A DNA stretch of 64,000 bases from positions 11,997 to 75,996 of the forward strand of contig JAQUKT010000001.1 of NCBI GenBank assembly GCA_028718945.1, in the 5' to 3' direction. A program made the translations under genes and the position numbers. The DNA is from Actinomycetota bacterium. GTDB lineage: Bacteria; Actinomycetota; Geothermincolia; Fen-727; JAQUKT01. Under the pieces are notes generated by a model. That model was not told the DNA's origin, did no database searches, and was given only the letters and a program-made list of their open reading frames with translations. Positions within the stretch are counted from its first letter, which is position 1. Each line of letters opens with the position of its first letter. Positions 6,307 through 60,088 of this stretch are shown here, one piece after another.

Positions 6307-7284
6307 TTATCCACCAATTCTCGACATATGGTCATGAACATAAGCGCCAACTTCGGGTTTGAGATTCCGTTCTTTCATCTTCCGCTCGAGTTCCTTCCGA
6401 ATTACATCACGAATAGTTTCGACCTTTGCCCCTCCCCTTATCATACTTTTTATATCAACTCCATTTTCATCGAAAAGGCAGGTCTTGAGCCTTCCATCCG
6501 CGGTGACCCTTAGTCTGTTACACGTATCGCAGATATGACAACTCACAGGAGAGATCAAACCAATTGTTCCAGGAGCGCCCCTTATCCTGTAATACTTTGC
6601 AGGTCCCCATCCCTTTTCGAAATTGATAGGCTCAACTTTAGCGAAACTCTGAATTCTTTCGAGCACCACGCTCGATGGAATGTAATACGAGCCCTTCTCC
6701 CTGAAATATGGCATGTACTCTATGAAACGAACGTGAACCGGCATCTCAAGAGCAAGTTTTACAAATGGAAGAGGGTCATCATTGATTCCAGCAAGAACAA
6801 CCACGTTGATTTTCACCGGTTTCAAACCGACCTCGATTGCTTTTTTTATTCCAAGAAGCGGACGTGAAATATCACCAACTCTGGTTATCATGCGGTAAGT
6901 ATCCGGATCAAGCGAATCGAGGCTCACATTTACTCTGTTTACACCCGATTTTTTTAGTTCCGTCGCAAATTCCGCAAGAAGCACTCCATTCGTAGTAAGA
7001 GTCACACGAACCTTTGAGGAGAGAGAATCGAGTTTCTTCAAGAACTCGGTAGCACCCTTCCTTACAAGAGGCTCCCCTCCAGTAACCCTGATTTTCCTTA
7101 TTCCATTCTTTACGGCTACATCTGTGAAAAAAAGGAGCTCCTCGTAAGTGATTATGTCCTCATGCTTAAGAGGCGGAACACCTTTTTCTGGCATGCAATA
7201 GGTGCATCTCAAGTTACATCTATCGGTGATGGATAACCTCAGATAATCAACGCGCCTCTTCACCTGGCTTTTCTCATCTTCCAT
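6307..7284 (-). CDS. moaA: GTP 3',8-cyclase MoaA (radical SAM)
   Basis: CNLRCTYCMP radical-SAM cluster motif. 325 aa with MoaA C-terminal cysteines. Confidence 0.9.
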   Translation of the reverse strand: MEDEKSQVKRRVDYLRLSITDRCNLRCTYCMPEKGVPPLKHEDIITYEELLFFTDVAVKNGIRKIRVTGGEPLVRKGATEFLKKLDSLSSKVRVTLTTNGVLLAEFATELKKSGVNRVNVSLDSLDPDTYRMITRVGDISRPLLGIKKAIEVGLKPVKINVVVLAGINDDPLPFVKLALEMPVHVRFIEYMPYFREKGSYYIPSSVVLERIQSFAKVEPINFEKGWGPAKYYRIRGAPGTIGLISPVSCHICDTCNRLRVTADGRLKTCLFDENGVDIKSMIRGGAKVETIRDVIRKELERKMKERNLKPEVGAYVHDHMSRIGG

Positions 7285-7314
7285 CCATCTATTCCTTTTT
7301 TTCGCAGATCACCA

Positions 7315-9252
7315 TCAAAGGTCAATCGGAATAAACTCACCCGCCTGCTCTAAGTCATAACCACCCAGTCTATCAACCTCATTCTTGAACTCCTCACCTT
7401 TTATCTCACGACGTATGAGGTTGAAAGCCTCTGTCTCAGTGAAGGAGCGACGACCGAGCAAATCGTACCTCTCCTTTGAAACCGGAACAAAATCGAGACT
7501 AAGAGCCTTTGCAGATGCCATCGTCCCGAGCCCCGCATCCGCCGAATCGCTTTCAACAGCAGCAGCAACAGCCATGTGAGTGAAAACCTCCCTCTCATAT
7601 CCATTTATAGATGACGGCTTGATATTTTCCTTGAACAAGAGATAATCGAGAAGAATTCTCGTGCCGCTGCCACGCTGCCTGTTTATGAAAGACAGACCTT
7701 TCCCGGCAATATCTTTCAGGCTGTTGATATTCTTCGGATTTCCCTCTTTCACGATCAAACCCTGTGTCCTCCAGCAAAGGTTCATCAGAAAAAGCCGCTC
7801 GCTTGTTTGTTTCTCTTTTATGTAAGGAACGTTGAATTCGCCGCTTTTCGGGTCAAAAAGATGTATCCCCCCCATGTGGGCATAGCCGTCGATAACCGCG
7901 GCAATTCCACCAGCACTTCCAACGTTAACGGCAGAAAAAACAAGCCCATAATTGCGAAAAAGGAGACTTGAAAGAATGTCGAGGCCGTGGTCGTTGCTTC
8001 CAATCACCAAGACAACCCTTTCCGGATCAAACTGCTCGCCTTTCAGAAAAACCTCAACTTCATCCAGGCGCTCAATCCCTTCACAGCCTCTTTTGACGCG
8101 TATATATCCATCAGAGCGGACAAGTGACATCGATATGCCAGAACCCCTCGAAAGCGGAACGGCTATCAACTCCCCGGAAACCTCCCCAACCTTCACGCCG
8201 ATGAACTCATCGAAACCAGAACGCGAGGAAATTCTTCTTGCCACCTTTGCCCTTATTACCTTTTCCTTTTCTCTTCTCCTCCCAAGAAATTCGCGGAGCA
8301 AAGGCTTTAAGAATTCCTCGGCAGCACGCCAGTTCGCAACCGGGAAACCTGGCAGCCCGAGGACAGGTTTTCCACAGGCAACACCAAGAATGACGGGTTT
8401 GCCTGGCTTCATAGCAACCCCATGAATAGAAACTTTGCCAAACTCCTCAATTATTTTCTTTGTGAAATCTTCCCTTCCAGCGGAAGTTCCCGCATTGATT
8501 ATAACCGCGTCCGAACTTTCCAGCGCATTTTCAACAGCCCTCCTGATCTCATCCCAGTCATCCGGAACCAGTTTATTTCTCAATGGAAATCCGCCAAGGT
8601 GCTCAACCAAAGATAGGAGCGCCCATGAATTGCTCTCAATCACCTTTCCCTGCTCGAGCAAACATAGGTTCTCAACGAGTTCGGTCCCGGTTGGAATAAT
8701 TGCAACAATCGGCTTCCGCCTCACTGGAATTTTTTCAAGCCCCGAATTCAGAAGAGCTCCAACATCCTGTGCCCTTACCTGATGTCCTCCTGGAAGAACC
8801 ATTTCGCCGCGCGTAATGTCCTCACCAATTGGTCTTATGTTCTGCCACGGAACAGCGGGCTTGATTATCTCTATTGAGCCACTCTCCAGTTCATTGACAT
8901 CCTCAATCATTATGACAGCGTCAAACTCGGGGGGGACAGGCTCGCCAGTGTCGATATATTGAGCATTTCGCCCCAATTCAAAAACAGCCGGATTATCCTC
9001 GCTTGCCCCGAATGTCTCTTTTGCGCGGACCGCAACCCCATCCATCGCGGAGGAATTGAATGGAGGAGAGGAAATCAAGGCAAAAAGAGATTCTGCAGTT
9101 ATTCTCCCCACGGAGTTCCTTACATCCACAAACTCGGACTCGGTGGGAAAACACACACCTTCAAGCCTGCAAAGTGAAAGCCATCTGGAAAGCGCCTCTT
9201 CAAGGGGCGTATTTTCAAGAAAGATATTTCTACGCACAACCGCTCTCCTCAA
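7315..9252 (-). CDS. moeA: Molybdopterin molybdo/tungsto-transferase MoeA fused to C-terminal periplasmic-binding-protein-like domain
   Basis: N-terminal MoeA_N/MoCF (SAMDGVAV, GTSAGREDF) and MoeA_C regions, followed by a ~230-aa PBP-like domain. 645 aa in total. Confidence 0.8.
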   Translation of the reverse strand: MRRAVVRRNIFLENTPLEEALSRWLSLCRLEGVCFPTESEFVDVRNSVGRITAESLFALISSPPFNSSAMDGVAVRAKETFGASEDNPAVFELGRNAQYIDTGEPVPPEFDAVIMIEDVNELESGSIEIIKPAVPWQNIRPIGEDITRGEMVLPGGHQVRAQDVGALLNSGLEKIPVRRKPIVAIIPTGTELVENLCLLEQGKVIESNSWALLSLVEHLGGFPLRNKLVPDDWDEIRRAVENALESSDAVIINAGTSAGREDFTKKIIEEFGKVSIHGVAMKPGKPVILGVACGKPVLGLPGFPVANWRAAEEFLKPLLREFLGRRREKEKVIRAKVARRISSRSGFDEFIGVKVGEVSGELIAVPLSRGSGISMSLVRSDGYIRVKRGCEGIERLDEVEVFLKGEQFDPERVVLVIGSNDHGLDILSSLLFRNYGLVFSAVNVGSAGGIAAVIDGYAHMGGIHLFDPKSGEFNVPYIKEKQTSERLFLMNLCWRTQGLIVKEGNPKNINSLKDIAGKGLSFINRQRGSGTRILLDYLLFKENIKPSSINGYEREVFTHMAVAAAVESDSADAGLGTMASAKALSLDFVPVSKERYDLLGRRSFTETEAFNLIRREIKGEEFKNEVDRLGGYDLEQAGEFIPIDL

Positions 9253-10496
9253 TCAATCAATTCAACAATAACTTTTTGACCTTTTTCAATTCCTTCAGAT
9301 TCCTCCTTGATACGAACGAGCCCCACAGCCTTGGACAAAGTTCCTATGAGATTTGACTTCCCCGTAACCGGCTCCGCGTAAAGTCCTCCGTCTTCCCTTA
9401 AGTAAACAGGCACGAATTCCATTCTTCCGGTAATAGAAGAAATAGATTTTGTTATCACCGCCTCCACAGTCCTGGGAGGAAGTAGAAATGATTGATTTTC
9501 TCCTCTAAGTCTCAAAAGTACGGGCTTCACAAGCTCCCTCAGTACAATGAGAGCAGATGAAGGGTTCCCTGGAAGTCCGAATGCTGGCTTACCATCACAA
9601 ATCGCGGCAATCGTCGGTTTTCCGGGTTTCAGTTTGAGACCGTGAACGAGGATTCCTGGCTTGCCGAGCCTGGAAATAACCGTAGATGTTTCATCTTTCA
9701 TTCCCATGGAACTCCCGCCACTTATGAGGAGAACATCGCATGACGAAAGGGCAATTTCCGCAACTGTAAGAATTTTCTCGAGTTTATCCTCCACTATTCC
9801 AAAATGCTCAGACTCGCAACCATAGAACTCAACCTGAGCACAGAGAGCAGGCGTGTTGATATCCCTTATCTGCCCCACACCAGGCTCCTCTTCAGGCGGA
9901 ACAATTTCATCGCCTGTGGCAATGACGCCTACCCGTGGTTTCGAATAAACCTCCACCTCTGTTACGCCAAGCCCCGCCATTGCGCCAATGTGTGAGGGGT
10001 TGAGCGCTGTTCCGCGACTTATCAAAAGCTCTCCGCAAGAAACATCCCCATCGGCACGTACTATGTTCTCCCCAGGAGCAACTCCGCGTTTTACATCAAG
10101 CATTCCCCGAGAAAGTTCCGTATCCTCAACCATAACAACCGCATCAGCGCCATCAGGAATCATGCCGCCTGTGAATACTCTCATGGCTTTGCCTGACTCA
10201 ACCGATCTGGTGGGCATGCTTCCCATTGGAACTTCCCCGAAAAGTTCGAGGGGAACCGGCTGAGACTCCCCTGCTCCAACCACATCCGAAGAGCAGACCG
10301 CAAATCCATCCATCGCCGAACGCTCAAAACCAGGAAGATCTCTCTGGGCAATCAAGTCCCTTGCAAGAACTCTCTTCAAAGACTCCGAAAGCGAAACCTT
10401 CTCGGTTCTTGGTTCGAAATCTTTGAGTTCCGAAAAAATCAAATCAAGCGCTTCGGAAACCCCGATAAGTGAAAGGAAACTTTCTGGCATAGACAC
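9249..10496 (-). CDS. moeA: Molybdopterin molybdotransferase MoeA (second paralog)
   Basis: 415 aa. SAMDGFAV, GGSSMGMKD and MoeA_C features. Overlaps the upstream moeA-PBP gene by 4 nt. Confidence 0.85.
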   Translation of the reverse strand: MSMPESFLSLIGVSEALDLIFSELKDFEPRTEKVSLSESLKRVLARDLIAQRDLPGFERSAMDGFAVCSSDVVGAGESQPVPLELFGEVPMGSMPTRSVESGKAMRVFTGGMIPDGADAVVMVEDTELSRGMLDVKRGVAPGENIVRADGDVSCGELLISRGTALNPSHIGAMAGLGVTEVEVYSKPRVGVIATGDEIVPPEEEPGVGQIRDINTPALCAQVEFYGCESEHFGIVEDKLEKILTVAEIALSSCDVLLISGGSSMGMKDETSTVISRLGKPGILVHGLKLKPGKPTIAAICDGKPAFGLPGNPSSALIVLRELVKPVLLRLRGENQSFLLPPRTVEAVITKSISSITGRMEFVPVYLREDGGLYAEPVTGKSNLIGTLSKAVGLVRIKEESEGIEKGQKVIVELID

Positions 10497-11672
10497 TCAC
10501 CTTCTATTCTCTCTTAGTTCCTCTTTAGTTGTTGAATCTTCGCATTCCAGCACGTGAATCGCTGTTGCCTTGAAACTCGCGTATAGATTTTTTCCGGGTT
10601 TCATCCCTAATTCCTCAACAGAGCGCTTTGTGATTAGAGAAACAAGTGTAAAGGGGCAATCGAGAAAAACCCTGGTTGAGCTTCCCTGAAAATCAATCTC
10701 ATTTACAATTCCCGACACACAATTCCTGCTGCTCGAGTTGTGCCTGCTCTTCTCTGTCAAAAGTGTTATATCCTCCGGTCTCAAACCAAGTGTAACTCTT
10801 TGCGGGGGTTTGAGTGATTCCGCAACTTCAATCTGAACACCACCTACATCAACAATGCTCAATCCTTCTTTTGATTCCAAAACAATTCCCTCTAAGAGAT
10901 TCTCAAAACCAACGAATTGCGCCACGAATTTGTTCCTTGGCTTGAAAAAAATCTCACTCGTTCTACCGACCTGCTCTATTCTCCCCTTATCGAGTATGGC
11001 AATGCGGCTTCCCATTCTCGCCGCCTCAAACTGGTCATGGGTCACAAATATGGCAGTAATATTCTTCTTGCGAAAGAGCCTCCTCACATCTTCCTGCAAC
11101 TTCAATCTCAAGAGAGTATCAAGGTTCGCAAAGGGCTCATCTAAAAGGAGTAATTCCGGCTTCAAAACAAGAGCGCGAGCAAGAGCAACACGCTGTGCCT
11201 CACCGCCGGACAGAGTACGCGCATTTCTTTTCTCAAAACCTTGAAGACCAACGAGGTTTAGAACATCAGAGACTTCCGCCAAGCGCTCACTTAAAGGAAC
11301 ACGCCTTACTTTCAATCCATAGGCAACATTATCAAAGACACTTCCTCTGAACAGCATGGGATCCTGAAAAATCATAGTCATTCTTCTTGACGTCTCAATA
11401 CGCTCTTTTCCTTTCAGATTTTGAATCTCTTCCCCGAAGAAAAAAACTCTTCCCCTGGTGGGAGCTTCAAGCAGATTCAAAATCCTTAGCAAAACGCTTT
11501 TGCCCGCACCACTTGGACCAAGGACAACAAGAACCTCTCCCGTTTTTACAATAAGCGAACCAATATCGAGAACAACTCTTTCGCCATAACTTTTCAAAAG
11601 ATTTTCAACACGAACGGCGGGAATCTCTTGCTCACCCATGGATATAAGCTCCCGTAACACCCTCGCTTTCAA
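10497..11672 (-). CDS. Tungstate/molybdate ABC transporter ATP-binding protein (TupC/ModC-like, C-terminal TOBE domain)
   Basis: Walker A GPSGAGKS, signature LSGGEAQRVALARAL, Walker B LLLLDEP. C-terminal ~120-aa TOBE-like extension. Confidence 0.8.
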   Translation of the reverse strand: MKARVLRELISMGEQEIPAVRVENLLKSYGERVVLDIGSLIVKTGEVLVVLGPSGAGKSVLLRILNLLEAPTRGRVFFFGEEIQNLKGKERIETSRRMTMIFQDPMLFRGSVFDNVAYGLKVRRVPLSERLAEVSDVLNLVGLQGFEKRNARTLSGGEAQRVALARALVLKPELLLLDEPFANLDTLLRLKLQEDVRRLFRKKNITAIFVTHDQFEAARMGSRIAILDKGRIEQVGRTSEIFFKPRNKFVAQFVGFENLLEGIVLESKEGLSIVDVGGVQIEVAESLKPPQRVTLGLRPEDITLLTEKSRHNSSSRNCVSGIVNEIDFQGSSTRVFLDCPFTLVSLITKRSVEELGMKPGKNLYASFKATAIHVLECEDSTTKEELRENRR

Positions 11673-12273
11673 CTATGTCTCTTTCCTTTGTTGTCTGAAG
11701 TCGCGTGAAAAGAATATTTACTACTACGGCAATGAGTATAAGGACGAGACCCTCGGCAAGCGCGATGTCATAGTTCCCGATTCTCGTGCTCAAGACGATA
11801 TCAGTCGTAAGCATGCGCGTACTTCCCTTTATGTTCCCTCCAACCATCATGATCGCGCCCACCTCGGAAACGACACCACCAAATCCGCCAATGAGGGCAG
11901 CGACAACGCCAGAGCGCGCCTCACGAATTTTCATCAAAATCGCCTGAAATCTCGTGGCTCCCAGACTCTTCGCCTGCATGCCAATGCGACTGTCGAGCTC
12001 CTCGAGAGAAGCGTTCGTGAATCCGGCAATAATGGGCGCAGAAAGCACTACCTGAACAAGAATGAGCGCCGGAACTGTATATAAGAGATTCAGGAAGCCA
12101 AATGGTCCACTCCTCGAAAAAAGCAGGACAAAGAATACGCCCGCAACAACTGGAGGAAGACCCATGAAAGTATGGACTATTATCAATAGAGCTTTTTTTC
12201 CGGGAAACCTGAATTCAGCCAAAGCCATCCCGATTGGAATTCCAACAATCGCTCCAAACGCGGTAGCGGTCAT
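11632..12273 (-). CDS. Tungstate/molybdate ABC transporter permease (TupB/ModB-like)
   Basis: 213-aa membrane protein with an EAA-like loop. Overlaps the ATPase gene. Confidence 0.7.
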   Translation of the reverse strand: MTATAFGAIVGIPIGMALAEFRFPGKKALLIIVHTFMGLPPVVAGVFFVLLFSRSGPFGFLNLLYTVPALILVQVVLSAPIIAGFTNASLEELDSRIGMQAKSLGATRFQAILMKIREARSGVVAALIGGFGGVVSEVGAIMMVGGNIKGSTRMLTTDIVLSTRIGNYDIALAEGLVLILIAVVVNILFTRLQTTKERDIVESEGVTGAYIHG

Positions 12274-12390
12274 GTTGACAAGAAGAGTAATGCCGAGAAT
12301 TCCATAGAACTCGGGATCGAGCCTTATTATGAGTAAGAATGCTTCCTTAAAAGCCCTTAATATACTTTCCAGTTTTTCCTACCGCAACGC

Positions 12391-13265
12391 TTACAATTTG
12401 AGGCCGCCAAGTCCACGAGTTTGCTCCTTGGCACATGGGTGAAAAAGTTGAAATCCTTCTTTTTCGTATTTGCCGATGAGCTCCTGACCCTTTTCACCCG
12501 TAACGAACCAGGCGAACTCTCCTGCCCCCTCCGTATTGAGTTTGAGATCTGGAAATTCTTTGGGATTTACAACTATTACACTATACGGATTTACGAGAGA
12601 TTTATCTTTCTCGACAAGAATCTTGAGTTTAAGGGATTCACGCATGAAAATGAATGTCGCCCTGTCGCTTAGAGTGTAGCCCTGCTTTTCGGATGTCATC
12701 GCAAGAACTTCTCCCATTCCCTGTCCTGCCTCAACATACCAGGGCTTTCCATGGGGGTCTATTCCCGCTTCCTTCCACAGAGATAGTTCTTTCTTGTTGG
12801 TTCCCGAATCATCGGCGCGGCTCACGAATGTTACTCCCCTTAAGGCAATCTTTTTGAACGCTTCCACAGCATTCGTTCCTCCCTTTATATTAGCAGTGTC
12901 GCTCTTGGGTCCAACTATGACAAAGTCATTCCACATGATCTCAACCCTTTCCAGTCCATATCCTTTCTTTACGAATTCCTCCTCTGAGGACTTCGCGTGA
13001 ACAAGAAGAGCATCAGCATCGCCTTTCTCGCCCATCTTGAGAGCCTCGCCAGTCCCTACTGCAATAGTTCTTACTTTCACGTTGCAATCCTTTTCAAAGG
13101 CCGGTAGCAAAACATCCAGCAAGCCAGAATCCTGGACACTGGTCGTAGTGGCAAGAATAAGATTGCCCGGCTCTCCGCAACCAAAAAAAGAAGCGGAGAA
13201 AGGAATAGGAGAATAGCAAGAACAAAAACTGAACTCGACCTTTGCACTCTCTTTATTTTATACAT
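12391..13265 (-). CDS. tupA: Tungstate-binding lipoprotein TupA-like, reading frame interrupted at A7 homopolymer (13183-13189)
   Basis: Mature part carries the TupA-type ATTTSVQDSGLLDVLLPAFEK motif. An SD-preceded ATG at 13265 encodes signal peptide MYKIKRVQRSSSVFVLAILLFLSPLLF in a different frame. Adding one base to the homopolymer restores a ...LLFFGCGEPG lipobox fusion. Confidence 0.65.
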
Positions 13266-13575
13266 CCCTCCTCCTTCAAATGACAAAAGAAAATCTACAT
13301 TTTCTCAATGAAACTGACCACAATATAGAGCGCTCTTTCGGAGGTGGTCTTCTATCAAAAGTGCAGTAATTTCTTTGATTCAAACATAAAAAACCCGCCG
13401 TGCAAAAAGGCAGGTTTATCATCTTACCTCTCCTTTCCAAACACGGGAGGCACAACCGTTTCCAGTTGCACCCCATCGCCCTCGCGCCATTGCAGATGCT
13501 TTAGGCGCTTCAGGTCGGAGATATTTTCGTTAAACTAACAAAAACATGGAAAAATGTCAACAAACAAATCAAAGC

Positions 13576-13603
13576 GGGATCAGGTCTTGCAATGACACAT
13601 TTT
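13576..13603 (-). repeat. Copy of 28-nt repeat family (reverse orientation, C variant)
   Basis: GGGATCAGGTCTTGCAATGACACATTTT is the reverse complement of AAAATGTGTCATTGCAAGACCTGATCCC. It forms an inverted pair with the 14103-14130 copy. Confidence 0.7.
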
Positions 13604-14102
13604 CAATCCTTTTCTGCCCTTCCGCTTATTGAACAATCGCCAAGGGCAGCGTTTCCCACAATTATTTTTTCGAATTGACTTGCTCATTCCTTGTTTAGGA
13701 GAAACGGAAGCGGTTTGATCTACAAATCGAAAACGAAACATCAAACCCCGGATTATCGATATGTAGAGTAAAGCCCTATCACTTGTTGAGTAAACGGAAT
13801 AATCGACAAAGGATTGGACTGGAGTGAAATGGGAACTATTTCAAGAGATGGCTATGGCTCGCCCTTGAAGAGAAACCTATTCTACATCTATGAAAAGATG
13901 GGTTAGCCTCTTGGAAAGTTTCAACCCCTGAAAGCACTGCATGGAAGTAGGCTGCGTAAGAAAAGCACTTTTGACCTCATGGACTTTTTTGCCCCCACTT
14001 TCCTTTCAATCAGGCAACAGAACCCTCGAAATGCACGATGCAAGACTACGTTCTTCTCTTTTGGGCTGCTTTCAGCAAAGCAGACGACCGTGCTGGTTCA
14101 CT

Positions 14103-14130
14103 AAAATGTGTCATTGCAAGACCTGACCCC
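14103..14130 (+). repeat. Copy of 28-nt repeat family (forward, C variant)
   Basis: AAAATGTGTCATTGCAAGACCTGACCCC, directly 3' of the stop of the 14150-15238 gene. Confidence 0.7.
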
Positions 14131-14162
14131 ATTATCGGGGGTGACCCCATTATCGGGGGCGC
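14127..14162. repeat. 18-nt tandem duplication (CCCCATTATCGGGGGYGM x2) at the element end, overlapping the 3' end of the downstream gene
   Basis: Direct tandem repeat seen in the sequence. It produces the artefactual DPIIGGDPIIGG ORF on the plus strand. Confidence 0.6.
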
Positions 14163-15238: not shown

Positions 15239-15473
15239 TTTCTATCCCCTTCACGAAAAGGCGCTATTCGATAGATGCTATCTATTATAAGACATTTCCA
15301 ATTCGCAAACCGTTGAAACGACACAGATACATACTCTCACCTCACCGCCGGAGAGCATGTTCTCCCACCACTTCTATCGAGTAAACTGCAAACTCGACCA
15401 AAATTGGGCTTTGAAGAATTTCACGGCAACAGAAATCTATACCGGATAAGAAAGACTTTGCGCCAAGGAATCA

Positions 15474-15502
15474 AAATGTGTTATTGCAAGACCTGACCCC
15501 AT
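15474..15502 (+). repeat. Solo copy of 28-nt repeat family (T variant)
   Basis: AAAATGTGTTATTGCAAGACCTGACCCCA, 4 nt after the stop codon of the 15507-18023 gene. Confidence 0.7.
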
Positions 15503-15506
15503 ACGC

Positions 15507-18023
15507 TCAAGGGTAAGGCTCGACAGCCGCACTTTTGAAAACACCGTAGCAGTCCGCCCGGTCAATTGGGAATTGTTTTTCGATCAAGGTTTTGAATGTA
15601 ACCCACCTCAACGCGCTTGCCGGATTGCTACCGGATGTATTCATGTTGAGCTGATCTACAAGCTTATGTAGGGCACCCAAACCGGGTTCGGTTCCAAGGG
15701 CAATCATCATCTGGCGAGAAGCTTCAAGTGCCTCGGGCGTTTTCATAGCATCTGCGATATTCTGCATTGCAGTGGGGTTATTCGCAAGCAGGTTAACAAT
15801 TGACATCACAAAGTTTCTTCCGTTAGTCGATTCAAGTATCGATGCAGTAGCCGCAGGATCCCCCTTGCCCATCAAATCACCTATGAAATCGGGGCAAGAG
15901 TTAACAATATTTGCGACTAATTGCGGGTCAATTCCGCCCTCCGCAACCGGTTTTACCAGGTCATATAACATTCCCTTGGGCCCGCCGGGTTCATAGCTCT
16001 TCTTGGTTGCCCTATTCATCGCTTCGTTCAGGGCACCAGCATCGAGATTTGCAATCAGGTTTGTGATAAACGTCTGGTTGTTGTTGATAATCGAGACGAC
16101 AAGGTTTGTGCTTATGCCAAAATCCGGGTCCATTAGTGCCTTCGTAAAATACTTCGTTGCCTCAGGCGATAAAGCCATCTGAGCCGGGTCCATGTTCTTG
16201 ATTACGCCAGAAATAAGCGCTTCTCCAGCATCCGTATTTATGGCGTTGCATAGAACAACGGGATTAAGGTTTGAAAGAAGCCCATCGATGAATGCTCCAT
16301 TGTTATTCACAATATATGCAACAGCCTTAGGGTCAAGAGCCTTCATCATCTTATCGGTGTTTTTCGGGTCTTGGGCGTTTACCACATTTGCTATGACCTT
16401 CGGATTGAGGAATGAGATGAGATTCGTGACAAACTCAATGTTGTTGTTAATGGCAACGGCAGTCCCGCTTGGGTCGAGTTTACCCATGAGTCTTGTAATG
16501 AATGTCTCATTGTTGTTAACCACACCCGCAATTACCTGAGGATTAAGCTTCGAAACCACATTTATCATGAAACTCGGGTCGCCATTCATACTTGAAGCCA
16601 GAGCATCGGCATCCAGTTTCCCTATCAACTTCGTGATAAACGCTCCATTGGCATTCACAACTCCAGCGATAACCGCCGGGTCGAGCCTTGCTAACATTCT
16701 GCTTGTCCACTCCCAGTTCTTGGCGCTCATCTCGTTTATTTTGTCTATATCGAGATACTTGAGAACACCCTTCAAGAATCCTGGATTTGCGTTTATTGCA
16801 ACAGCAGTTCCAGCCATACTCATGTTTCCCATCAAGCCCGACAGGAAAGCGCCATTTGCATTTACCGCATTTGCAATAGGCGTCGGATCAAGTTTTGCAA
16901 GGACCTGACACATCATCTCGGTATTGCTTGAAACTGCCCGTATGAGATCCGTGGAAAGATAACCGACAAGCGAACTTATGAATGGAGCCGAATTGTTCAA
17001 TATGCCCGCTATAACCCCGGGATCCAAATAACCTATCAACTTGGTCGTAAAATCGCTCGTTGTTCCTGTATTTTTCGCAAGTCCTGCAGGGTCCATCTTC
17101 GATATCAATCTCGTGAGAAATGCCTGATTGCTCCCGATTGTAGCAATGAACTCCGGACTTATGTTCATTGCGACATCGTATGTAAATTTATTTGTTTCAG
17201 GAGTTGACATCGAGAGCTGGTCGGGGTCCATATAGGACACAAGTTTCGTCAAAAACGCCTGATTTCCGTTTACCACTCCTGCAATAACTGACGGGTCGAG
17301 ATAACCCATAAGGTCCCGAATCATGTTCACATTACTTGCCATTCCAGCGCTCATACCTTCAGCGTCGATTTTTCCAAGGAGTTCAGTTATCCATGCTCCG
17401 TTGTTGTTGACAACCCCCGCTATTGTATCCGGACTCAGATATCCAACAAGCTCACTTGTAAATGTCGGGTCTGCATTCATGGCCTCAGCGGTAGTCGCGG
17501 GATCCGTATATCGAACAACCTCAACGAGGAAATCTCCATTTGCGTTTATCGCATCCGCGATAACTTTTGCGTTGAGATTTCCCACCAGAGAAGCGATGAA
17601 AGGCCCTGCCTTGTTTACGATTTCCGCGGTGATTTTCGGGTCCCCATTAGCCATCATTTCGTTTATGAACTTCTCGTTTTTATTTACAGCCTCAGCAATT
17701 ACCTTTCCATCGATGTAGCCCAGTAAATCCGAAATCCATTCGGGATTCTCGTTTACCGCGATTGCAGTTCCCTTGGGGTCTGAATACTTCATTACCTCAT
17801 TTATGAACTCAGGGTTATCATTTATCGCCTCGGCAACCGCCTTGACATCAAGAGAGCGAAGCATTGCAGCGGTTCCCTTGGGATTGCTGCTCATCTTTCC
17901 AATCATCTTACCAAGAGGGCTTCGGGTTGGAATGAAACCAACAGCGCCAACTGCCGCAAGTGCAACAACTACAATTAAGACCACCGCATTTACCAATGTT
18001 TGAATGCCCTTGTTATAGATCAT
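15507..18023 (-). CDS. Membrane-anchored 23-residue-repeat protein, paralog 1 (about 30 repeats, consensus LDPxVIAxAVNxNxxFIxxLIxx)
   Basis: N-terminal TM helix, conserved PLGKMIGKM segment, then periodic DPxVIAxxVNxN repeats across 838 aa. Low-complexity antisense ORFs occur throughout. Confidence 0.7.
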   Translation of the reverse strand: MIYNKGIQTLVNAVVLIVVVALAAVGAVGFIPTRSPLGKMIGKMSSNPKGTAAMLRSLDVKAVAEAINDNPEFINEVMKYSDPKGTAIAVNENPEWISDLLGYIDGKVIAEAVNKNEKFINEMMANGDPKITAEIVNKAGPFIASLVGNLNAKVIADAINANGDFLVEVVRYTDPATTAEAMNADPTFTSELVGYLSPDTIAGVVNNNGAWITELLGKIDAEGMSAGMASNVNMIRDLMGYLDPSVIAGVVNGNQAFLTKLVSYMDPDQLSMSTPETNKFTYDVAMNISPEFIATIGSNQAFLTRLISKMDPAGLAKNTGTTSDFTTKLIGYLDPGVIAGILNNSAPFISSLVGYLSTDLIRAVSSNTEMMCQVLAKLDPTPIANAVNANGAFLSGLMGNMSMAGTAVAINANPGFLKGVLKYLDIDKINEMSAKNWEWTSRMLARLDPAVIAGVVNANGAFITKLIGKLDADALASSMNGDPSFMINVVSKLNPQVIAGVVNNNETFITRLMGKLDPSGTAVAINNNIEFVTNLISFLNPKVIANVVNAQDPKNTDKMMKALDPKAVAYIVNNNGAFIDGLLSNLNPVVLCNAINTDAGEALISGVIKNMDPAQMALSPEATKYFTKALMDPDFGISTNLVVSIINNNQTFITNLIANLDAGALNEAMNRATKKSYEPGGPKGMLYDLVKPVAEGGIDPQLVANIVNSCPDFIGDLMGKGDPAATASILESTNGRNFVMSIVNLLANNPTAMQNIADAMKTPEALEASRQMMIALGTEPGLGALHKLVDQLNMNTSGSNPASALRWVTFKTLIEKQFPIDRADCYGVFKSAAVEPYP

Positions 18024-18064
18024 CTTTTAAGCTCCTGTGAACTTGTCAGTTCAATCCCTCCAAA

Positions 18065-20527
18065 TCAAAACGGACCCACTGGCTGACCAGCTGTCGTGCA
18101 AAGTCGAGCATCAACAATCTGGGTCCACCCCTCAATGTTAATCAAGCCCAAAAGCTGCAGCTGGCCAAAACTCCATATCTTCGTTATTGCATTGTCCTCG
18201 TGATGCCCGGTAGGTCCATGTATTACTTCCACTATGGTTTGTGGTGATATTCCGCCCGCGTTTTTGTTCAATAGCCCACTGATGAAGTTCCCGCTTTGTT
18301 CAAGTATGGGCGCTGTTCCATCCGGGTCCATACTTGCCATCAATGAACTTATGAAGTTTGTGATATCGGGTGCATCTTCAAGAATAGTCATGAGAATATT
18401 TGGGTCTATCCCTTGAGGAGGCGGAGCGAGCATCGCTTCCATCATTTCAGGATGCGCCCCCATCGCTTGAGCAAGAACATCGGTATCAAGATAACCAAGA
18501 AGTTTCTGAATCATCGGGATAACAGCCGGATTGTTGTTGAGGGTATCGGTGATGTCCGCGGTGTTTGAAAGCTCTGACATCTTAGCGATGAAATCTCCAT
18601 TTAGATTTATTGCGTTGGCTATGACAGCGGGATTCATATGACTCACCAAGTTTGAAATCCAGGTTGCGTTCGTATTCAATAGGTCTGCTATCATGTACGG
18701 GTCAAGGGCACCAGGTTGCAAGAGGCGCTCAACAAAATCGGTGTCGCTCATCTCAATTGAATTCGGATCTATACTTGCTATTACGCCCGTCAGAAATGCC
18801 TGATTGTTGTTTATTGCATAGGTTACTGTTTCTGGCTTTATCTCATGTAACAGACTGGTAATGAACTCCTTGTTCTCATTGATCATCTTTGCGGTTCCCT
18901 TTGGGTCCATTTTGTTCATCAGGTTCGTTATGAATGTCTGATTAGCGTTAACAACGCTTGCAATTACCGCCGGATCAAGATATTTGAGCATATCGCTCAT
19001 CATTTGCGGGTTTGCATTCACCGCGTTGGCAATAACAGTAGTGTTCAGGTTCTTGACCAGATTTGTAATGAATGTTCCATTGGAGTTTACAACCCCGGCT
19101 ATTACCGATGGATAAAGATACTTTGTTATATCAGATGCTGATCCAGTACTCGAATTCACCACAGCGGCAATGACAGCAGGGTCGAGCTTACTCACAAGAG
19201 CAGTCAAGAAATTACCCGACTGGTTGACGCTTTTTGCAGTTGCATCGACGGACATGAGCGGCATCATCTCTCCAATCCAGTTAGTATTAGAATTTACTAT
19301 TCCCGCTATGACCTTTGGGTCAAGCGCCGCAAGAGTTCCAGCCATCAAGTTACTCGTCGCATTCATCGCATTTGCTATCGCAACCGGATTGAGACGCGCT
19401 ATGACATCGGTCAAGAATTTCTCATTCTTCAAAACGGTTACCATCATGTCGGGGTCAGCGTTCCCGCTTGCGGCAACTATGAAATCGATGTTGTTGTTCA
19501 AAACGCTCGCAATAACTGTCGGGTCGAGTGAGTTTATCAAGCCAACCGCAAATCCCCCGATTTGATTCACGAGCCCTCCTATTGAAGCAGGAGAAAGCTT
19601 TTCCATCAACTTCGATGTTGAGGAAGTGTTGTTTACGACGGCGCTCAAAAGCTCAGGGGAAATATTTTCAAGCACGCCGCTAACGGTATTCGCGCTTCTA
19701 TTTACTATTCCCGCTATCACAACAGGGTCGAGTTTCTTTATCAAATTGATGCTCATCTGGGGGTCCTGGCTTGTTGCTCTTGCGATAATCTCTGGATTCA
19801 GTTTCCCCAATAGTTCAGTTATGAAGGGACCATTCTGGTTGACGATATCGGCAATCACATCGAGATTAATGTAGTTTATTACCTCTGAACTTGCGCTGGT
19901 ATTGGAGTTCATCAGGTTCGCTAAAACATCCGTTGATATAAGACCTACCGTCTCGCTGAGGAAAGCCTCGTTTCCGTTTACTGCGTCAGCAATTACCTTC
20001 GGGTCTATGTATGAGGTGACCTTATTCATGAACTCCGTATTGCCCACACCGCTTGTCGCTAATTTTTTCGCGTCAAGCTCACCAATCAGTTCTGTAATGA
20101 ACTTCCCGTTGGCATTTACCGCTCCGGCAATTACCTTCGGGTTCAAGTAATTGAGAAGCTCAACGACGAAATCCGTATTCGCATCCATGCCCTCACTCAT
20201 TGCGGAGGGGTCCATATAACTTATGAGCTCTGTAATCCACTTGCCATTCTTGTTTATAGCATCAGCAATAACTTTCGGGTCGAGAGCGGAAAGGGTTTTC
20301 GACATCATCGTCGGGTCCGCATTCATCGCGTTGGCAAGAACCTTCGGGTCAAGCTGCGAAAGTAAGCCGGATATCAAACCTTTCTGGCTTGCCATCTTTC
20401 CCATCAGCACGCTCAGAGGTGGATTCGAACTGGGTATCATCATGGTCACGCCCAAAATGAGCGATAGCAATAATGCCATAATTATTACTATATTTATAAG
20501 CCCTTGAACTCCTCTTGAAAGTAACAT
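18065..20527 (-). CDS. Membrane-anchored 23-residue-repeat protein, paralog 2
   Basis: 820 aa. Same architecture as paralog 1 (TM helix, PLSVLMGKM segment, repeats of exact 23-residue period). Confidence 0.7.
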   Translation of the reverse strand: MLLSRGVQGLINIVIIMALLLSLILGVTMMIPSSNPPLSVLMGKMASQKGLISGLLSQLDPKVLANAMNADPTMMSKTLSALDPKVIADAINKNGKWITELISYMDPSAMSEGMDANTDFVVELLNYLNPKVIAGAVNANGKFITELIGELDAKKLATSGVGNTEFMNKVTSYIDPKVIADAVNGNEAFLSETVGLISTDVLANLMNSNTSASSEVINYINLDVIADIVNQNGPFITELLGKLNPEIIARATSQDPQMSINLIKKLDPVVIAGIVNRSANTVSGVLENISPELLSAVVNNTSSTSKLMEKLSPASIGGLVNQIGGFAVGLINSLDPTVIASVLNNNIDFIVAASGNADPDMMVTVLKNEKFLTDVIARLNPVAIANAMNATSNLMAGTLAALDPKVIAGIVNSNTNWIGEMMPLMSVDATAKSVNQSGNFLTALVSKLDPAVIAAVVNSSTGSASDITKYLYPSVIAGVVNSNGTFITNLVKNLNTTVIANAVNANPQMMSDMLKYLDPAVIASVVNANQTFITNLMNKMDPKGTAKMINENKEFITSLLHEIKPETVTYAINNNQAFLTGVIASIDPNSIEMSDTDFVERLLQPGALDPYMIADLLNTNATWISNLVSHMNPAVIANAINLNGDFIAKMSELSNTADITDTLNNNPAVIPMIQKLLGYLDTDVLAQAMGAHPEMMEAMLAPPPQGIDPNILMTILEDAPDITNFISSLMASMDPDGTAPILEQSGNFISGLLNKNAGGISPQTIVEVIHGPTGHHEDNAITKIWSFGQLQLLGLINIEGWTQIVDARLCTTAGQPVGPF

Positions 20528-20581
20528 CCGAGTTTCCTCCGGTTATCCCTTCCTCCTGTCTTCCTCCTGTTAAAGTTTCCT

Positions 20582-23485: not shown

Positions 23486-24052
23486 TCAGAGGAAACTTGA
23501 AGGACTCGACTGGGAAAGTATTCTGTTTAGGGCAAAAAGACCTCTTTTCTGAGTGGATTTGACTGCACCAACTGATACACCCATAATCTCTGCAATCTGA
23601 GCGTTAGAAAGATTATCGATAAACTTGAGAACTATTACTTCGCGCTGGTTGTGAGTGAGTCTTTGAAGGGCAAGATAGAGTCTTTCACTATCGAGGTCTG
23701 CCATTGCAGTTTCCATTGGATTGCCTTTCGCAGCAGGAGTAGGCGACTGCTCGTCAATAGGAACATTCTCCCTTCTTGACTCACTTCTGAAAAAATCAAC
23801 AGCGAGATTGTGCGCAATTCTGAAAAGCCATGACGAAAATGATACATCACGAGTCTCGTAGTATTGAATATTCTCGAACGCTTTCAAGAAGGTCTGTCCT
23901 GTAAGGTCCTGTGCGTCATTCTGATTTCCAACCTTGTAATAAATATATCTGAATATCTGATCAACATATTCATCGTAAAGCTCCCCAAATGCCTCCGGGT
24001 CGCGTTCTTTTGCTCTCTTCACAAGGTTTTGAATAGCGCTCTCTCTGGACAT
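23486..24052 (-). CDS. ECF-type RNA polymerase sigma-70 family factor
   Basis: 188 aa. Region 2 (DLTGQTFLKAFENI...WLFRIAHNLAVDFFR) and region 4 HTH (NAQIAEIMGVSVGAVKSTQKRG). Confidence 0.85.
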   Translation of the reverse strand: MSRESAIQNLVKRAKERDPEAFGELYDEYVDQIFRYIYYKVGNQNDAQDLTGQTFLKAFENIQYYETRDVSFSSWLFRIAHNLAVDFFRSESRRENVPIDEQSPTPAAKGNPMETAMADLDSERLYLALQRLTHNQREVIVLKFIDNLSNAQIAEIMGVSVGAVKSTQKRGLFALNRILSQSSPSSFL

Positions 24053-58338: not shown

Positions 58339-58379
58339 CCCGATTTACCACCTTTGCTTCCACCAAGAATGGCAAGAAT

Positions 58380-58460
58380 GGGGTCAGGTCTTGCAATAAC
58401 ACATTCACTCATTATACACAAGGCAAGCGAAGAAATGTGTTATTGCAAGACCTGACCCCA
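58380..58460. repeat. Perfect 27-nt inverted repeat (two T-variant copies of the repeat family) with 28-nt spacer; stem-loop
   Basis: Left arm 58380-58405 is the exact reverse complement of right arm 58435-58460. It overlaps the last ~17 codons of the 58412-60088 gene. Confidence 0.85.
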
Positions 58461-60088
58461 TTTACCAACCAGCGAGAAACCTCGTCAAGCACATTTGTCT
58501 CAACTTTCGGGTGTGACATATATGGTTTCGAACCAGCTTCATCTATCATGTTCCCAAACCAGTGGTCAAGTCCATCAAAAGTGATAATCTTACTTTCAAA
58601 TCCTTTCCGCTTCTCCAGTGCTTCCATGAGCTCCCTGGCCTCCTCAACTGGAACAATTCTGTCGCTTGCGCCTGCCACGACCAAAACCGGAACTTCAAGG
58701 AGCTCAAGCGTTTGCAGGGTATCATGCTCCATGTGAGAGCGCATCCAACCGAGGAAAGGTTTGTGCTTGCCTATCGTTATTTTATCTACTGAACTTTCCA
58801 CCAGGCTTACGAGGTAATTGACCCATTCCCACTTTGATTCAAACTCTTCCTTCCCCAAATTTTCAGTTTTTCTTTCTTCATCAAGCATCCTCAAGAAAGT
58901 GTCAGGAAAATAAGGAGCGGATGGGGTGGCGATAAGGACACATGCTTGAATGTAGGGATTCGAGGACGCGGCAGCAGATGCAGAAATACCGCCTTCCCCG
59001 TAGCCAACAATACCAATTCTCTCAATATCAATATCTCCTCTCATCACCAAATAGTCAATCTTGGAATGGATATCCTGAACCTCTGTTTCGAGAGTATAGT
59101 ACCTGTAGTTTCCCTCGCTATCCGCTACGCCACGCCTGTCGCAGCTGAGAACCGCGAATCCCTCTTTTGCAAGTCTGTTCGCAAGTTGAGACAAAAAACC
59201 GCATCCAGTTCTATCCTGTGGTCCCTCATCTCCAACAAGAACAACTGCTTTGTATGGAGGTTTTCCGCGAGGGATCAGAAGAGAGCCTGCGAGTTCAATC
59301 CCATCAATGCTTGTTATCCTCACATCGAGGATTCTCCTTGCCCTCAAGGGATATGGCTTTGAAGCAGGTCTTCCGGGCCAGCCCTTTTTGAAAACCAGCC
59401 CCGTGCATCTGTCGCGTACCTCTACTATTTCGCCATTCCCATCGAATTTCAAAAGATAATTTATGCCGCTCGAGACAACTGCTACGGTTCGGTTTTTGGT
59501 CATTGTCGCAAAGGTCTCATAGAGCGACTTCCCTTGAGAAGGAATCATGGTCACCAGACGCAATTCCTTGCAATGAGACTCGAGTAATCTATCAAGCAGA
59601 ATCTGAAGAGAGCAAACGGATCCTCGCTCGAGAGGAAAAAAGTTCATTCCCGGATCAAAACCTGAAACATCCTCAAATGTCTGTAAGTCATCTCTAAAGT
59701 AGTTGTAACGTCCGATATCCGTTCTATCCAAACTTGCGCTGAAAATAGGACCACCTCTATCGTGCCCGCCGTAATATGCCAGCAAATATCCATTTTTCGA
59801 AATTTTTACCTCTTGCTCAAGAGTTGTCTCAAAATCGAGAAACGGGCGCCTGGTGGTGCTTTTATATATCACAAAATCATCATGTTCTTCCTTCCAGAAG
59901 CGCTCGCTTCCTATGACCTCATCGTTCTCGAGTATCGAATACCCCCTCACCGATATGCAGCCCTGAAGAAATGGAAAGAAAAGCGTGAAAAGCGAAACCG
60001 CAAGAACAATGGAAAAAGCGCGAAGTAGGCTATTTCTCTTTTTGCTTTTTGTTCGCCAAGACCTCTTTTGTCCCATCCTGTCCATCAT
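58412..60088 (-). CDS. S9/S15-like alpha/beta-hydrolase peptidase (dipeptidyl-aminopeptidase/acyl-aminoacyl peptidase-like)
   Basis: 558 aa. GYGEGG nucleophile motif with a C-terminal alpha/beta-hydrolase fold preceded by a beta-rich N-domain. The C-terminus is read from the inverted-repeat element. Confidence 0.6.
   Translation of the reverse strand: MMDRMGQKRSWRTKSKKRNSLLRAFSIVLAVSLFTLFFPFLQGCISVRGYSILENDEVIGSERFWKEEHDDFVIYKSTTRRPFLDFETTLEQEVKISKNGYLLAYYGGHDRGGPIFSASLDRTDIGRYNYFRDDLQTFEDVSGFDPGMNFFPLERGSVCSLQILLDRLLESHCKELRLVTMIPSQGKSLYETFATMTKNRTVAVVSSGINYLLKFDGNGEIVEVRDRCTGLVFKKGWPGRPASKPYPLRARRILDVRITSIDGIELAGSLLIPRGKPPYKAVVLVGDEGPQDRTGCGFLSQLANRLAKEGFAVLSCDRRGVADSEGNYRYYTLETEVQDIHSKIDYLVMRGDIDIERIGIVGYGEGGISASAAASSNPYIQACVLIATPSAPYFPDTFLRMLDEERKTENLGKEEFESKWEWVNYLVSLVESSVDKITIGKHKPFLGWMRSHMEHDTLQTLELLEVPVLVVAGASDRIVPVEEARELMEALEKRKGFESKIITFDGLDHWFGNMIDEAGSKPYMSHPKVETNVLDEVSRWLVNGVRSCNNTFLRLPCV

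What the first reader, a model, noticed from the sequence alone, without database searches (positions are those of the whole stretch)
13576..14130. MITE-like 555-bp unit bounded by 28-nt inverted repeats in the tup-sigma locus intergenic region
GGGATCAGGTCTTGCAATGACACATTTT at 13576-13603 is the inverted partner of AAAATGTGTCATTGCAAGACCTGACCCC at 14103-14130. Both carry the GTCATT (C) variant, whereas the other copies in the window carry GTTATT. The two termini are therefore more similar to each other than to the other copies, as expected for the two ends of one element. The interior has no credible ORF. The right end is followed by an 18-nt tandem duplication that overlaps the 3' end of the neighbouring gene.
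Basis: seen in the sequence. Interest (0 to 1): 0.6.

Follow-up and report, generated by a model that had tools for sequence, protein, structure and literature searches.

The report
Tyrosine-transposase end repeats, not a MITE
The two 28-base inverted repeats are real copies of the end-repeat of a little-studied bacterial mobile element (a "TIRtron", moved by a tyrosine transposase called TIRYT) found in many phyla, but the 555-base stretch between them shows no sign of moving as one unit.

Summary
Observation confirmed. 13576-13603(+) and 14103-14130(-) are inverted copies with 27/28 matching (0 of 100 shuffles), and an exact 18-nt x2 tandem duplication lies at 14124-14159. The window holds five copies, also 15473-15500(-) and a perfect 80-bp hairpin dimer at 58380-58459. 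The repeat is not genome-specific: its 20-nt core occurs in more than 103 contigs labelled with at least 15 phyla. Its conserved block is 26 nt (GGGGTCAGGTCTTGCAAT[C/A/G]ACACATT). In nine loci two inverted copies bracket a ~280-aa Y1/HUH transposase with a C-terminal HTH. This matches the published TIRtron/TIRYT class, whose TIRs start GGGGWSAS. Copies occur as solos, tight dimers (39-94 bp), deletion derivatives that keep a transposase relic (156-258 bp) and full units (~0.9-1.2 kb). No target-site duplications flank pairs. The 555-bp pair is unique in size, has no transposase relic, no ORF with a family match, and no similarity to anything else fetched. Its right copy carries a flank-junction duplication that is typical of solo copies. 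So "mobile-element termini" is supported, while "one 555-bp MITE" is not shown. It is more likely two of three clustered solo copies. This is a new member of a known, obscure kind. The junction duplication (14% of copies, 23% of solos) appears undescribed.

The parts
13576..13603 (+). TIR copy c1 (GGGA variant, G at position 19); conserved 26-nt block is 13576-13601
   Evidence: 24/26 to family consensus; lies 44 nt upstream of the Moco riboswitch start at 13532
13604..14102 (.). 499-bp interior: apparently ordinary non-coding DNA with no transposase relic
   Evidence: HMM six-frame best i-E 3.3; no blastn similarity to 103 loci or the rest of the window; no Pfam hit for small ORFs; no Rfam hit; GC 0.40-0.46, like neighbouring intergenic DNA
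14103..14130 (-). TIR copy c2 (G at position 19), outer GGGG end facing the stop codon of the 362-aa ORF
   Evidence: 25/26 to consensus
14124..14159 (.). exact 18-nt x2 tandem duplication (TGACCCCATTATCGGGGG) made of 11 nt of host flank, including the TAA stop of the 362-aa ORF, plus the first 7 nt (GGGGTCA) of TIR c2
   Evidence: the same kind of junction duplication is seen in 27/189 family copies
15473..15500 (-). TIR copy c3 (A at position 19), beginning 6 nt after the TGA stop of the 838-aa ORF; similarity to c1 extends to 15465 (36 nt, 89%)
   Evidence: (I1)
58377..58462 (.). tight TIR dimer (c5 58377-58405 +, c4 58434-58462 -): perfect 29-nt arms and a 28-nt spacer. It is a REPIN-like hairpin, and c4 plus the spacer supply the last ~17 codons and the stop of the 558-aa esterase-like ORF
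   Evidence: I2; ssDNA fold -32.8 kcal/mol, z -10.3; the same dimer is in an independent Logan assembly, L104
58364..58381 (.). 9-nt x2 junction duplication (CAAGAATGG) whose second copy ends with the first two G of TIR c5
   Evidence: also present in L104

Best explanation
The 28-mers are copies of the ~26-nt terminal inverted repeat (TIR) of a TIRtron family. These are small elements whose only gene is a TIRYT, a Y1/HUH tyrosine transposase related to REP-associated RAYTs and carrying a C-terminal helix-turn-helix. In this window the copies are non-autonomous, since no TIRYT gene lies within 64 kb. The 555-bp 'unit' is most likely two separately deposited TIR copies. Together with c3 they form a cluster of three around the 362-aa gene, bracketing ordinary intergenic DNA. 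That DNA is the 3' flank of the 362-aa gene and the region upstream of the Moco-riboswitch/tupABC operon. It is probably not a single MITE. Inferred mechanism, by analogy with IS200/IS605 TnpA and RAYTs: the TIRYT recognises the TIR (perhaps through the HTH) and cleaves and rejoins one DNA strand through a 5'-phosphotyrosine intermediate. Paired TIRs can fold into a hairpin or panhandle in single-stranded DNA and move without target-site duplication, landing preferentially just after stop codons. At solo TIRs the reaction cannot be completed, and repair leaves a short duplication of the flank/TIR junction. Shown here: the repeat-transposase association, the geometry, the absence of TSDs, the deletion derivatives, the site preference and the junction duplications. 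Inferred only: the catalysis, the single-stranded intermediates and the origin of the duplications.
For: The 20-nt core is found in >103 contigs of many phyla. The conserved block is positions 1-26, with sharp edges at bases that were not in the search pattern. A ~280-aa ORF sits next to the repeat in 14 loci and is bracketed by inverted copies, GGGG outward, at 900-1182 bp in 9 loci. That protein matches Pfam Y1_Tnp (1e-14) plus a C-terminal HTH, and NCBIfam REP-associated tyrosine transposase at 78.9-80.0 bits against a cut-off of 80. HUH (NHYH) and RY motifs are visible in all nine full-length sequences. The literature describes TIRYT/TIRtrons with TIRs starting GGGGWSAS and occurring single, dimeric or grouped (PMC3733652). 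Subclass 2.1 TnpA-Y1 has C-terminal HTH domains (PMC6006769). Our TIR starts GGGGTCAG. A 46%-identical 'transposase' on a Legionella adelaidensis plasmid is bracketed by a diverged version of the same TIR. No TSDs flank 55 pairs. For the two-solos reading: the 555-bp span is unique among 56 pairs and there is no relic. Real deletion derivatives keep one (L014 and L041, i-E 8e-6 and 2e-5). The interior is unique. c2 carries the junction duplication found in 23% of solos but only 5% of dimer arms. c2 and c3 both abut stop codons, as 17% of family copies do against 4.5% of controls. c1's extended match is to c3, not c2.
Against: c1 and c2 are in the inward-facing, GGGG-outward orientation of genuine units and share the G19 variant not seen in the other three window copies. 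A 28-bp panhandle is predicted for the single strand. Deletion derivatives do exist in this family, so an older derivative whose interior has been replaced or has decayed cannot be excluded. No TIRYT gene was found for this organism, and the rest of the genome could not be searched. Position-19 concordance within pairs is only weakly above chance (32/53), so it argues little either way. No biochemical work on any TIRYT was found in the library searched.
Confidence: 0.6

Rival explanations
1. The 555 bp is one non-autonomous element: a TIRtron that lost its TIRYT gene, by internal deletion plus decay or by replacement with unrelated DNA, and that can still be mobilised in trans as a unit through its two intact TIRs.
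For: The arrangement is inverted and GGGG-outward, as in all genuine units. c1 and c2 share G19 and match at 25/26 of the conserved block. Internal-deletion derivatives are demonstrated in other genomes, one of them ~900 bp from its parent element (L041). A panhandle is predicted in ssDNA.
Against: The interior has no transposase relic, although the TIRs are nearly perfect and the known derivatives keep relics next to a TIR. The size class is otherwise empty. No second copy of the interior was found in any fetched sequence. c2 shows the solo-type junction duplication. c2 is as close to c3 as to c1, and c1's 36-nt match is to c3.
Confidence: 0.3
2. c1 and c3 (36-nt, 89% inverted match) are the ends of a 1925-bp composite that carries the 362-aa zinc-ribbon/membrane protein gene as cargo, with c2 a later internal insertion.
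For: The extended inverted match 13576-13611 / 15465-15500 is the longest inverted repeat in the window (I1). A 60%-identical homologue of the 362-aa gene in a metagenome contig sits in a different upstream context and has no TIR.
Against: The extra 8 nt match only 6/8, which is marginal after multiple comparisons. No unit longer than ~1.2 kb, and none carrying a gene other than the TIRYT, was seen among 56 pairs. c3 sits 6 nt after a stop codon, like an ordinary solo. The single relative is too distant for synteny arguments.
Confidence: 0.05
3. The 28-mer is a host regulatory site, for example a sigma-54-type promoter (GG-N10-GC with TTGCA) or an operator, and is not mobile DNA.
For: GGGGTCAGGTCTTGCA has GG and GC at the -24/-12 spacing and an exact TTGCA (sequence). 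All copies are intergenic or at gene ends.
Against: The orientations are convergent or face gene ends, not gene starts. The identical sequence occurs in many phyla next to unrelated genes and specifically brackets a transposase gene. The -24 element matches only at GG. Hairpin dimers and deletion derivatives are hallmarks of mobile DNA.
Confidence: 0.03

Closest known systems
TIRtrons / TIRYT (TIR-associated tyrosine transposases), Di Nocera et al. 2013 (PMC3733652); TnpA-Y1 subclass 2.1 of Quentin et al. 2018 (PMC6006769)
   Same: The TIR starts with the published GGGGWSAS motif (GGGGTCAG). The same repeat brackets a Y1/HUH transposase with a C-terminal HTH. The right TIR overlaps the 3' end of the gene ('3'ov'). 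TIR copies are dispersed as single, dimeric and grouped repeats.
   Different: No TIRYT gene lies in this window. The published work lists 26 examples from isolate genomes. Within what I could read (figures are not held), it does not report this 26-nt sequence, its conservation beside transposases only 42-79% identical to each other, the deletion derivatives, the stop-codon proximity or the junction duplication.
REPIN-RAYT systems (Bertels & Rainey 2011, PMC3116915; Nunvar et al. 2010, PMC2817692)
   Same: The repeats are short, non-autonomous, mostly extragenic and often arranged as inverted doublets that fold into long hairpins (c4/c5). The partner enzyme is a homologous Y1 transposase scoring at the NCBIfam RAYT cut-off. 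No TSDs occur.
   Different: The single repeat is not itself a palindrome and has no GTAG or CGTC tag. The transposase is about twice as long, with an HTH tail. The same repeat sequence is shared across phyla, whereas REPs are lineage-specific and vertically inherited.
IS200/IS605 family (IS608, ISDra2)
   Same: The catalytic core is HUH/Y1 (Pfam Y1_Tnp). Target-site duplication is absent, and a single-strand 'peel and paste' mechanism is the best available model.
   Different: IS200/IS605 elements have no terminal inverted repeats and use different subterminal hairpins at the two ends. Here both ends carry the same 26-nt sequence in inverted orientation.
Classical bacterial MITEs (e.g. RUP, Correia/NEMIS, Nezha), mobilised by DDE transposases
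   Same: They are short non-coding units bounded by 15-30-bp TIRs, they derive from autonomous elements by internal deletion, and they are often next to gene ends.
   Different: They create fixed-length TSDs and match the TIRs of DDE-type IS elements. Neither holds here.

Membership tests
TIRtron/TIRYT TIR repeats | TIR begins with the GGGGWSAS motif | tested here: met
   GGGGTCAG in c2-c5 and GGGATCAG in c1. In the family profile GGGG is 75-91% conserved although it was not part of the search pattern. The motif is as published.
TIRtron/TIRYT TIR repeats | The same repeat brackets a TIRYT gene in inverted orientation | tested here: met
   Nine loci have pairs at 900-1182 bp around a ~280-aa Y1 ORF. 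These are other genomes, not the window.
TIRtron/TIRYT TIR repeats | Associated protein has a Y1/HUH core and is distinguished from RAYTs by its length and C-terminal HTH | tested here: met
   Pfam Y1_Tnp 1.2e-14 plus HTH_38/HTH_23/HTH_28 at residues 253-284. NHYH and RY motifs are in all nine sequences.
TIRtron/TIRYT TIR repeats | A cognate TIRYT gene in the same genome | not testable with these tools
   None in the 64-kb window (tblastn best E 0.05; HMM best i-E 3.7).
TIRtron/TIRYT TIR repeats | Copies dispersed as single, dimeric or grouped repeats | tested here: met
   The window has a cluster of three (c1-c3) and one dimer (c4/c5). Across loci there are 92 unpaired copies and 38-40 tight dimers.
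REP/REPIN-RAYT | Each REP is a short imperfect palindrome tagged with GTAG (or CGTC) | tested here: not met
   The 26-mer has no such tag and only a 6-nt TTGCAA self-complementary core (sequence).
REP/REPIN-RAYT | Partner is a RAYT (NCBIfam NF047646) | tested here: inconclusive
   80.0 and 78.9 bits against a cut-off of 80, over the N-terminal 140 aa only.
Classical (DDE-type) MITE | Direct target-site duplication flanking the unit | tested here: not met
   Flanks CAAAGC|...|ATTATC share nothing. Across 55 pairs the exact direct-repeat lengths are 0 (35), 1 (13), 2 (5), 3 (1) and 5 (1), as expected by chance.
Classical (DDE-type) MITE | Multiple full-length copies of the same unit | tested here: inconclusive
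   The 499-bp interior has no second copy in the window or in 103 loci of other genomes. The rest of this genome could not be searched.
IS200/IS605 | No TIRs; distinct subterminal hairpins at the left and right ends | tested here: not met
   Both ends carry the same 26-nt sequence in inverted orientation.
sigma-54 promoter | TGGCAC-N5-TTGCW placed upstream of a gene and pointing into it | tested here: not met
   Only GG and TTGCA match. Copies converge on each other or face gene 3' ends.

The most novel reading that the evidence does not exclude
The one-sided flank/TIR junction duplication is 8-19 nt long and ends mostly after GGGGTC(A), between the GGTCA|GGTCT half-repeats. It may be a footprint of TIRYT chemistry: a site-specific nick about 7 nt inside the TIR which, at a solo end with no partner, is resolved by repair synthesis instead of transposition. 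If so, genome sequences alone reveal the cleavage site of a transposase family on which no biochemistry was found. They would also show a Y1 enzyme working on true terminal inverted repeats that stay nearly invariant (26 nt) while the enzyme itself has diverged to ~42-53% identity across at least 15 phyla.
Probability: 0.2. Interest if true: 0.6.

Novelty: new member of a known kind. Interest (0 to 1): 0.35.

Why it matters
For this window it explains five repeats, one gene-end duplication and one altered protein C-terminus as the work of a single mobile-element family, and it removes the case for a new MITE. More broadly, TIRYT/TIRtrons have been mentioned in only two papers in the library searched, and no mechanism is given. 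The data gathered here give testable handles on how these elements move and why their ends are so constrained. These are one 26-nt TIR shared across many phyla, deletion derivatives beside a parent element, absence of TSDs, a preference for sites just after stop codons, and a sharply localised junction duplication typical of solo copies.

Tried and rejected
(1) Sigma-54 promoter or operator reading: rejected on orientation and on the transposase association. (2) Decayed transposase inside the 555 bp: tblastn and a profile HMM over six frames found nothing (best i-E 3.3-3.7). (3) Structured RNA in the interior: Rfam at E<=1 gave only the neighbouring Moco riboswitch. (4) Small ORFs in the interior: no Pfam hit. 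(5) Other copies of the interior: none in the window or the fetched loci. (6) Filled versus empty orthologous sites: the only relative found (L105, 60% identity, contig ends at the gene) is too distant and has no TIR upstream. (7) Identifying the genome: exact-protein look-ups returned only two short Logan contigs from SRR22315506, which break at or near the repeats. (8) Phage carriage: no match in viral contigs. (9) Literature search for the sequence itself: only chance matches in honey-bee papers. (10) Hairpin-stalling as the cause of the junction duplication: disfavoured because the duplication is enriched at solos, which cannot form the hairpin, rather than at dimers. (11) Assembly artefact as the cause: disfavoured because the duplication occurs in MFD (Microflora Danica) contigs of 0.3-0.5 Mb, which I take to be long-read assemblies (not verified), and in two independent assemblies of this organism.

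Full report
OBSERVATION. The sequence is as described. GGGATCAGGTCTTGCAATGACACATTTT at 13576-13603(+) is matched by 14103-14130(-) with one mismatch. At up to 3 mismatches the window holds four copies, against none in 100 dinucleotide-preserving shuffles. The repeat finder added a fifth copy, 58377-58405(+). With 58434-58462(-) it forms a perfect 29-nt inverted pair separated by 28 nt (I2). A 26-mer consensus scan found no further copy (five at >=24/26, the next best 18/26). The 18-nt tandem duplication is exact (14124-14141 = 14142-14159) and contains the TAA stop of the 362-aa ORF on the minus strand. c2 differs from c3 (15473-15500) by one base, exactly as it differs from c1. The longest inverted match in the window is c1 with c3 (36 nt, 89%, I1).

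CONTEXT. To the left, on the minus strand, a Moco/tungsten riboswitch (13414-13532, 67 bits) precedes tupA/B/C-like ABC transporter genes, two moeA genes and a moaA-like gene. To the right lie a 362-aa protein with an N-terminal Cys-rich zinc-ribbon-like region and a hydrophobic C-terminal region (my reading of the sequence, not tested), then c3. Beyond c3 are three large paralogous repeat proteins and an ECF sigma factor.

WHAT THE REPEAT IS. These came from MAGs and isolates labelled Nitrospirota, Rokubacteria/Methylomirabilota, Actinomycetota, Beta-, Gamma- and 'Delta'-proteobacteria, Acidobacteriota, Verrucomicrobiota, Atribacterota, Caldisericota, Thermotogae, Elusimicrobia, Omnitrophota, Bipolaricaulota, Nitrospinota and others. 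A profile of 192 copies shows a conserved block of 26 nt, GGGGTCAGGTCTTGCAAT[C>A~G]ACACATT. Information drops to zero on both sides, including at GGGG and TT, which were not in the search pattern. Clustering of ORFs within 600 nt of the repeat gave one dominant family, present in 14 loci: a ~280-aa protein starting MARPLR...YHVTSRGN...CLMDNHYHLL. It matches Pfam Y1_Tnp (1e-14) and carries a C-terminal HTH. It scores 78.9-80.0 bits on NCBIfam 'REP-associated tyrosine transposase', whose cut-off is 80. In nine loci two inverted copies of the repeat, GGGG outward, bracket this gene at 900-1182 bp. In L083 the gene's stop codon lies inside the right repeat (sequence).

This matches a published but little-studied class. 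Di Nocera et al. 2013 named RAYT-like genes flanked by long TIRs 'TIRYT' and the elements 'TIRtrons'. They noted a shared GGGGWSAS start of the TIRs and TIR families occurring as single, dimeric or grouped copies (PMC3733652). Quentin et al. 2018 placed most TIRYTs in TnpA-Y1 subclass 2.1, which carries C-terminal HTH/DnaA-like domains (PMC6006769). Only these two papers in the library use the terms. An annotated example from a cultured organism supports a cognate enzyme-site pair: a 46%-identical 'transposase' on a Legionella adelaidensis plasmid is bracketed by a diverged version of the TIR (AGGGTCAGGCCTTGCCTTTTG). Conversely, nine TIRYTs that sit next to the near-identical TIR are only 42-79% (mean 53%) identical to one another. 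So the TIR is far more constrained than the protein. The exact core was the search criterion, which is an ascertainment caveat.

HOW COPIES ARE ARRANGED. Among 56 inward-facing pairs, outer spans fall into four classes. Tight dimers span 47-94 bp (38-40 pairs) and fold as long hairpins. The window's own dimer gives -32.8 kcal/mol, z = -10.3. Six pairs span 156-258 bp, the window pair spans 555 bp, and nine gene-bearing units span 900-1182 bp. Three of the intermediate pairs are internal-deletion derivatives. L014 and L041 retain the first ~20 codons of the TIRYT (MARPLRLEL...; i-E 8e-6 and 2e-5), and L013 possibly retains the C-terminus (i-E 0.03). The L041 derivative lies about 900 bp from an intact parent on the same contig. 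No target-site duplication flanks any class (55 pairs), as expected for Y1/HUH elements of the IS200/IS605 type and unlike DDE-type MITEs. The outer GGGG end lies 0-30 nt after the stop codon of a >=100-aa ORF reading toward it in 17% of copies, against 4.5% of random positions. In the window, c2 was 1 nt and c3 is 6 nt after a stop, and c4 plus the dimer spacer encode the last ~17 residues and the stop of the 558-aa esterase-like ORF.

THE 18-nt DUPLICATION. It is not a TSD but an instance of a family-wide feature. A tandem duplication of 8-19 nt comprises host flank plus the first 0-9 nt of the TIR, with a mode at 6-7 nt (GGGGTC/A). It occurs in 27 of 175-189 copies (14-15%) against 1.2% at random positions, and 0.5-3.7% in every other 10-nt bin from -60 to +80. 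Most cases are exact. The feature is concentrated in solo copies (19/83, 23%) and is rare in dimer arms (4/75, 5%). It is present in 0.3-0.5-Mb MFD contigs, which I take to be long-read assemblies (not verified), and in two independent assemblies of this organism. An assembly artefact or hairpin-induced slippage is therefore unlikely. I found no mention of it in the two TIRYT papers ('duplication' occurs 0 times). Its cause is unknown. My working idea is abortive one-ended cleavage near TIR position 7 followed by repair synthesis (inference only).

IS THE 555 bp ONE ELEMENT? In favour: correct orientation, the shared G19, 25/26 identity of the conserved block, a predicted ssDNA panhandle, and the existence of deletion derivatives. 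Against: the size is unique, and there is no transposase relic by tblastn or profile HMM although the TIRs are almost perfect. The interior matches nothing else, has no supported ORF or RNA family, and has host-like intergenic composition. c2 carries the solo-type duplication and sits at a stop codon like c3, and c1's extended similarity is to c3. Position-19 concordance within pairs is only 32/53, against ~0.44 expected, so the shared G is weak evidence. I put about 0.6 on two independently deposited copies, part of a 'grouped' trio, and about 0.3 on a single non-autonomous unit. The genome scan hit its limit, and the organism is otherwise represented only by short Logan contigs that break at or near the repeats.

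VERDICT. The repeat belongs to a known, obscure family of mobile-element termini (TIRtron/TIRYT). The specific claim of a 555-bp MITE is not supported, though not excluded. Novelty: a new member of a known kind. The side observations may be worth a specialist's follow-up. These are the cross-phylum invariance of a 26-nt TIR, the deletion derivatives, the stop-codon proximity and the solo-linked junction duplication.

Noticed in passing
window 13414-13532 (-): A Moco/tungsten riboswitch (RF01055, 67 bits) lies upstream of a tupA/B/C-like ABC transporter, two moeA genes and a moaA-like radical-SAM gene (6307-13122, minus strand). A perfect TTGACA at 13555-13560(-) lies 15 nt from TIR c1, so c1 sits just upstream of the likely promoter.
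   Followed up: partly
window 15507-23350 (-): Three adjacent paralogous proteins (838, 820 and 922 aa) are built from dozens of 69-nt (23-aa) repeats with the motif ...LDPxVIAxAVNxN... They have essentially no Pfam assignment (only sub-threshold HTH_69) and lie downstream of an ECF sigma factor (23486-24052). This appears to be an uncharacterised repeat-protein family.
   Followed up: partly
window 58412-58462 (-): The last ~17 codons (NGVRSCNNTFLRLPCV) and the double stop of the 558-aa esterase-like ORF are encoded by TIR c4 and the dimer spacer. The element therefore replaced or extended the native C-terminus.
   Followed up: partly
TIR positions 18-20 (e.g. window 15481-15483, 14111-14113): In the frame GG|GGT|CAG|GTC|TTG|CAA|TRA, the A and G variants of TIR position 19 give an in-frame TAA or TGA. 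In the C variant, the reverse strand (TGTGTGA) supplies the TIRYT gene's own stop. Five ORFs in the data set end exactly 20 nt into a TIR.
   Followed up: partly
L041 2070-2257 and 264-1183: A 188-bp deletion derivative keeps the first ~14 codons (MARPLRLELSGGLY) of the TIRYT. It lies ~900 bp from the intact parent TIRtron on the same Hydrogenophilaceae contig, which is a snapshot of how a MITE-like unit arises.
   Followed up: yes
window 24318-32774 (-), repeats at 30337-30622: A 2818-aa ORF has BNR/YCF48-like, IPT/TIG and DUF5719 domains and contains near-identical 123-nt tandem repeats.
   Followed up: no
L104 and L107 (Logan, SRR22315506): Independent short-read contigs of the same organism are 100% identical to the window. 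One ends inside the TIR dimer (at window 58461). The other ends at window 13319, about 95 nt before the riboswitch and 257 nt before TIR c1.
   Followed up: partly
window 34187-35401 (+): A TadA/VirB11-family secretion ATPase (343 bits to TIGR03819) is followed by further plus-strand ORFs, possibly a Tad-type pilus locus.
   Followed up: no
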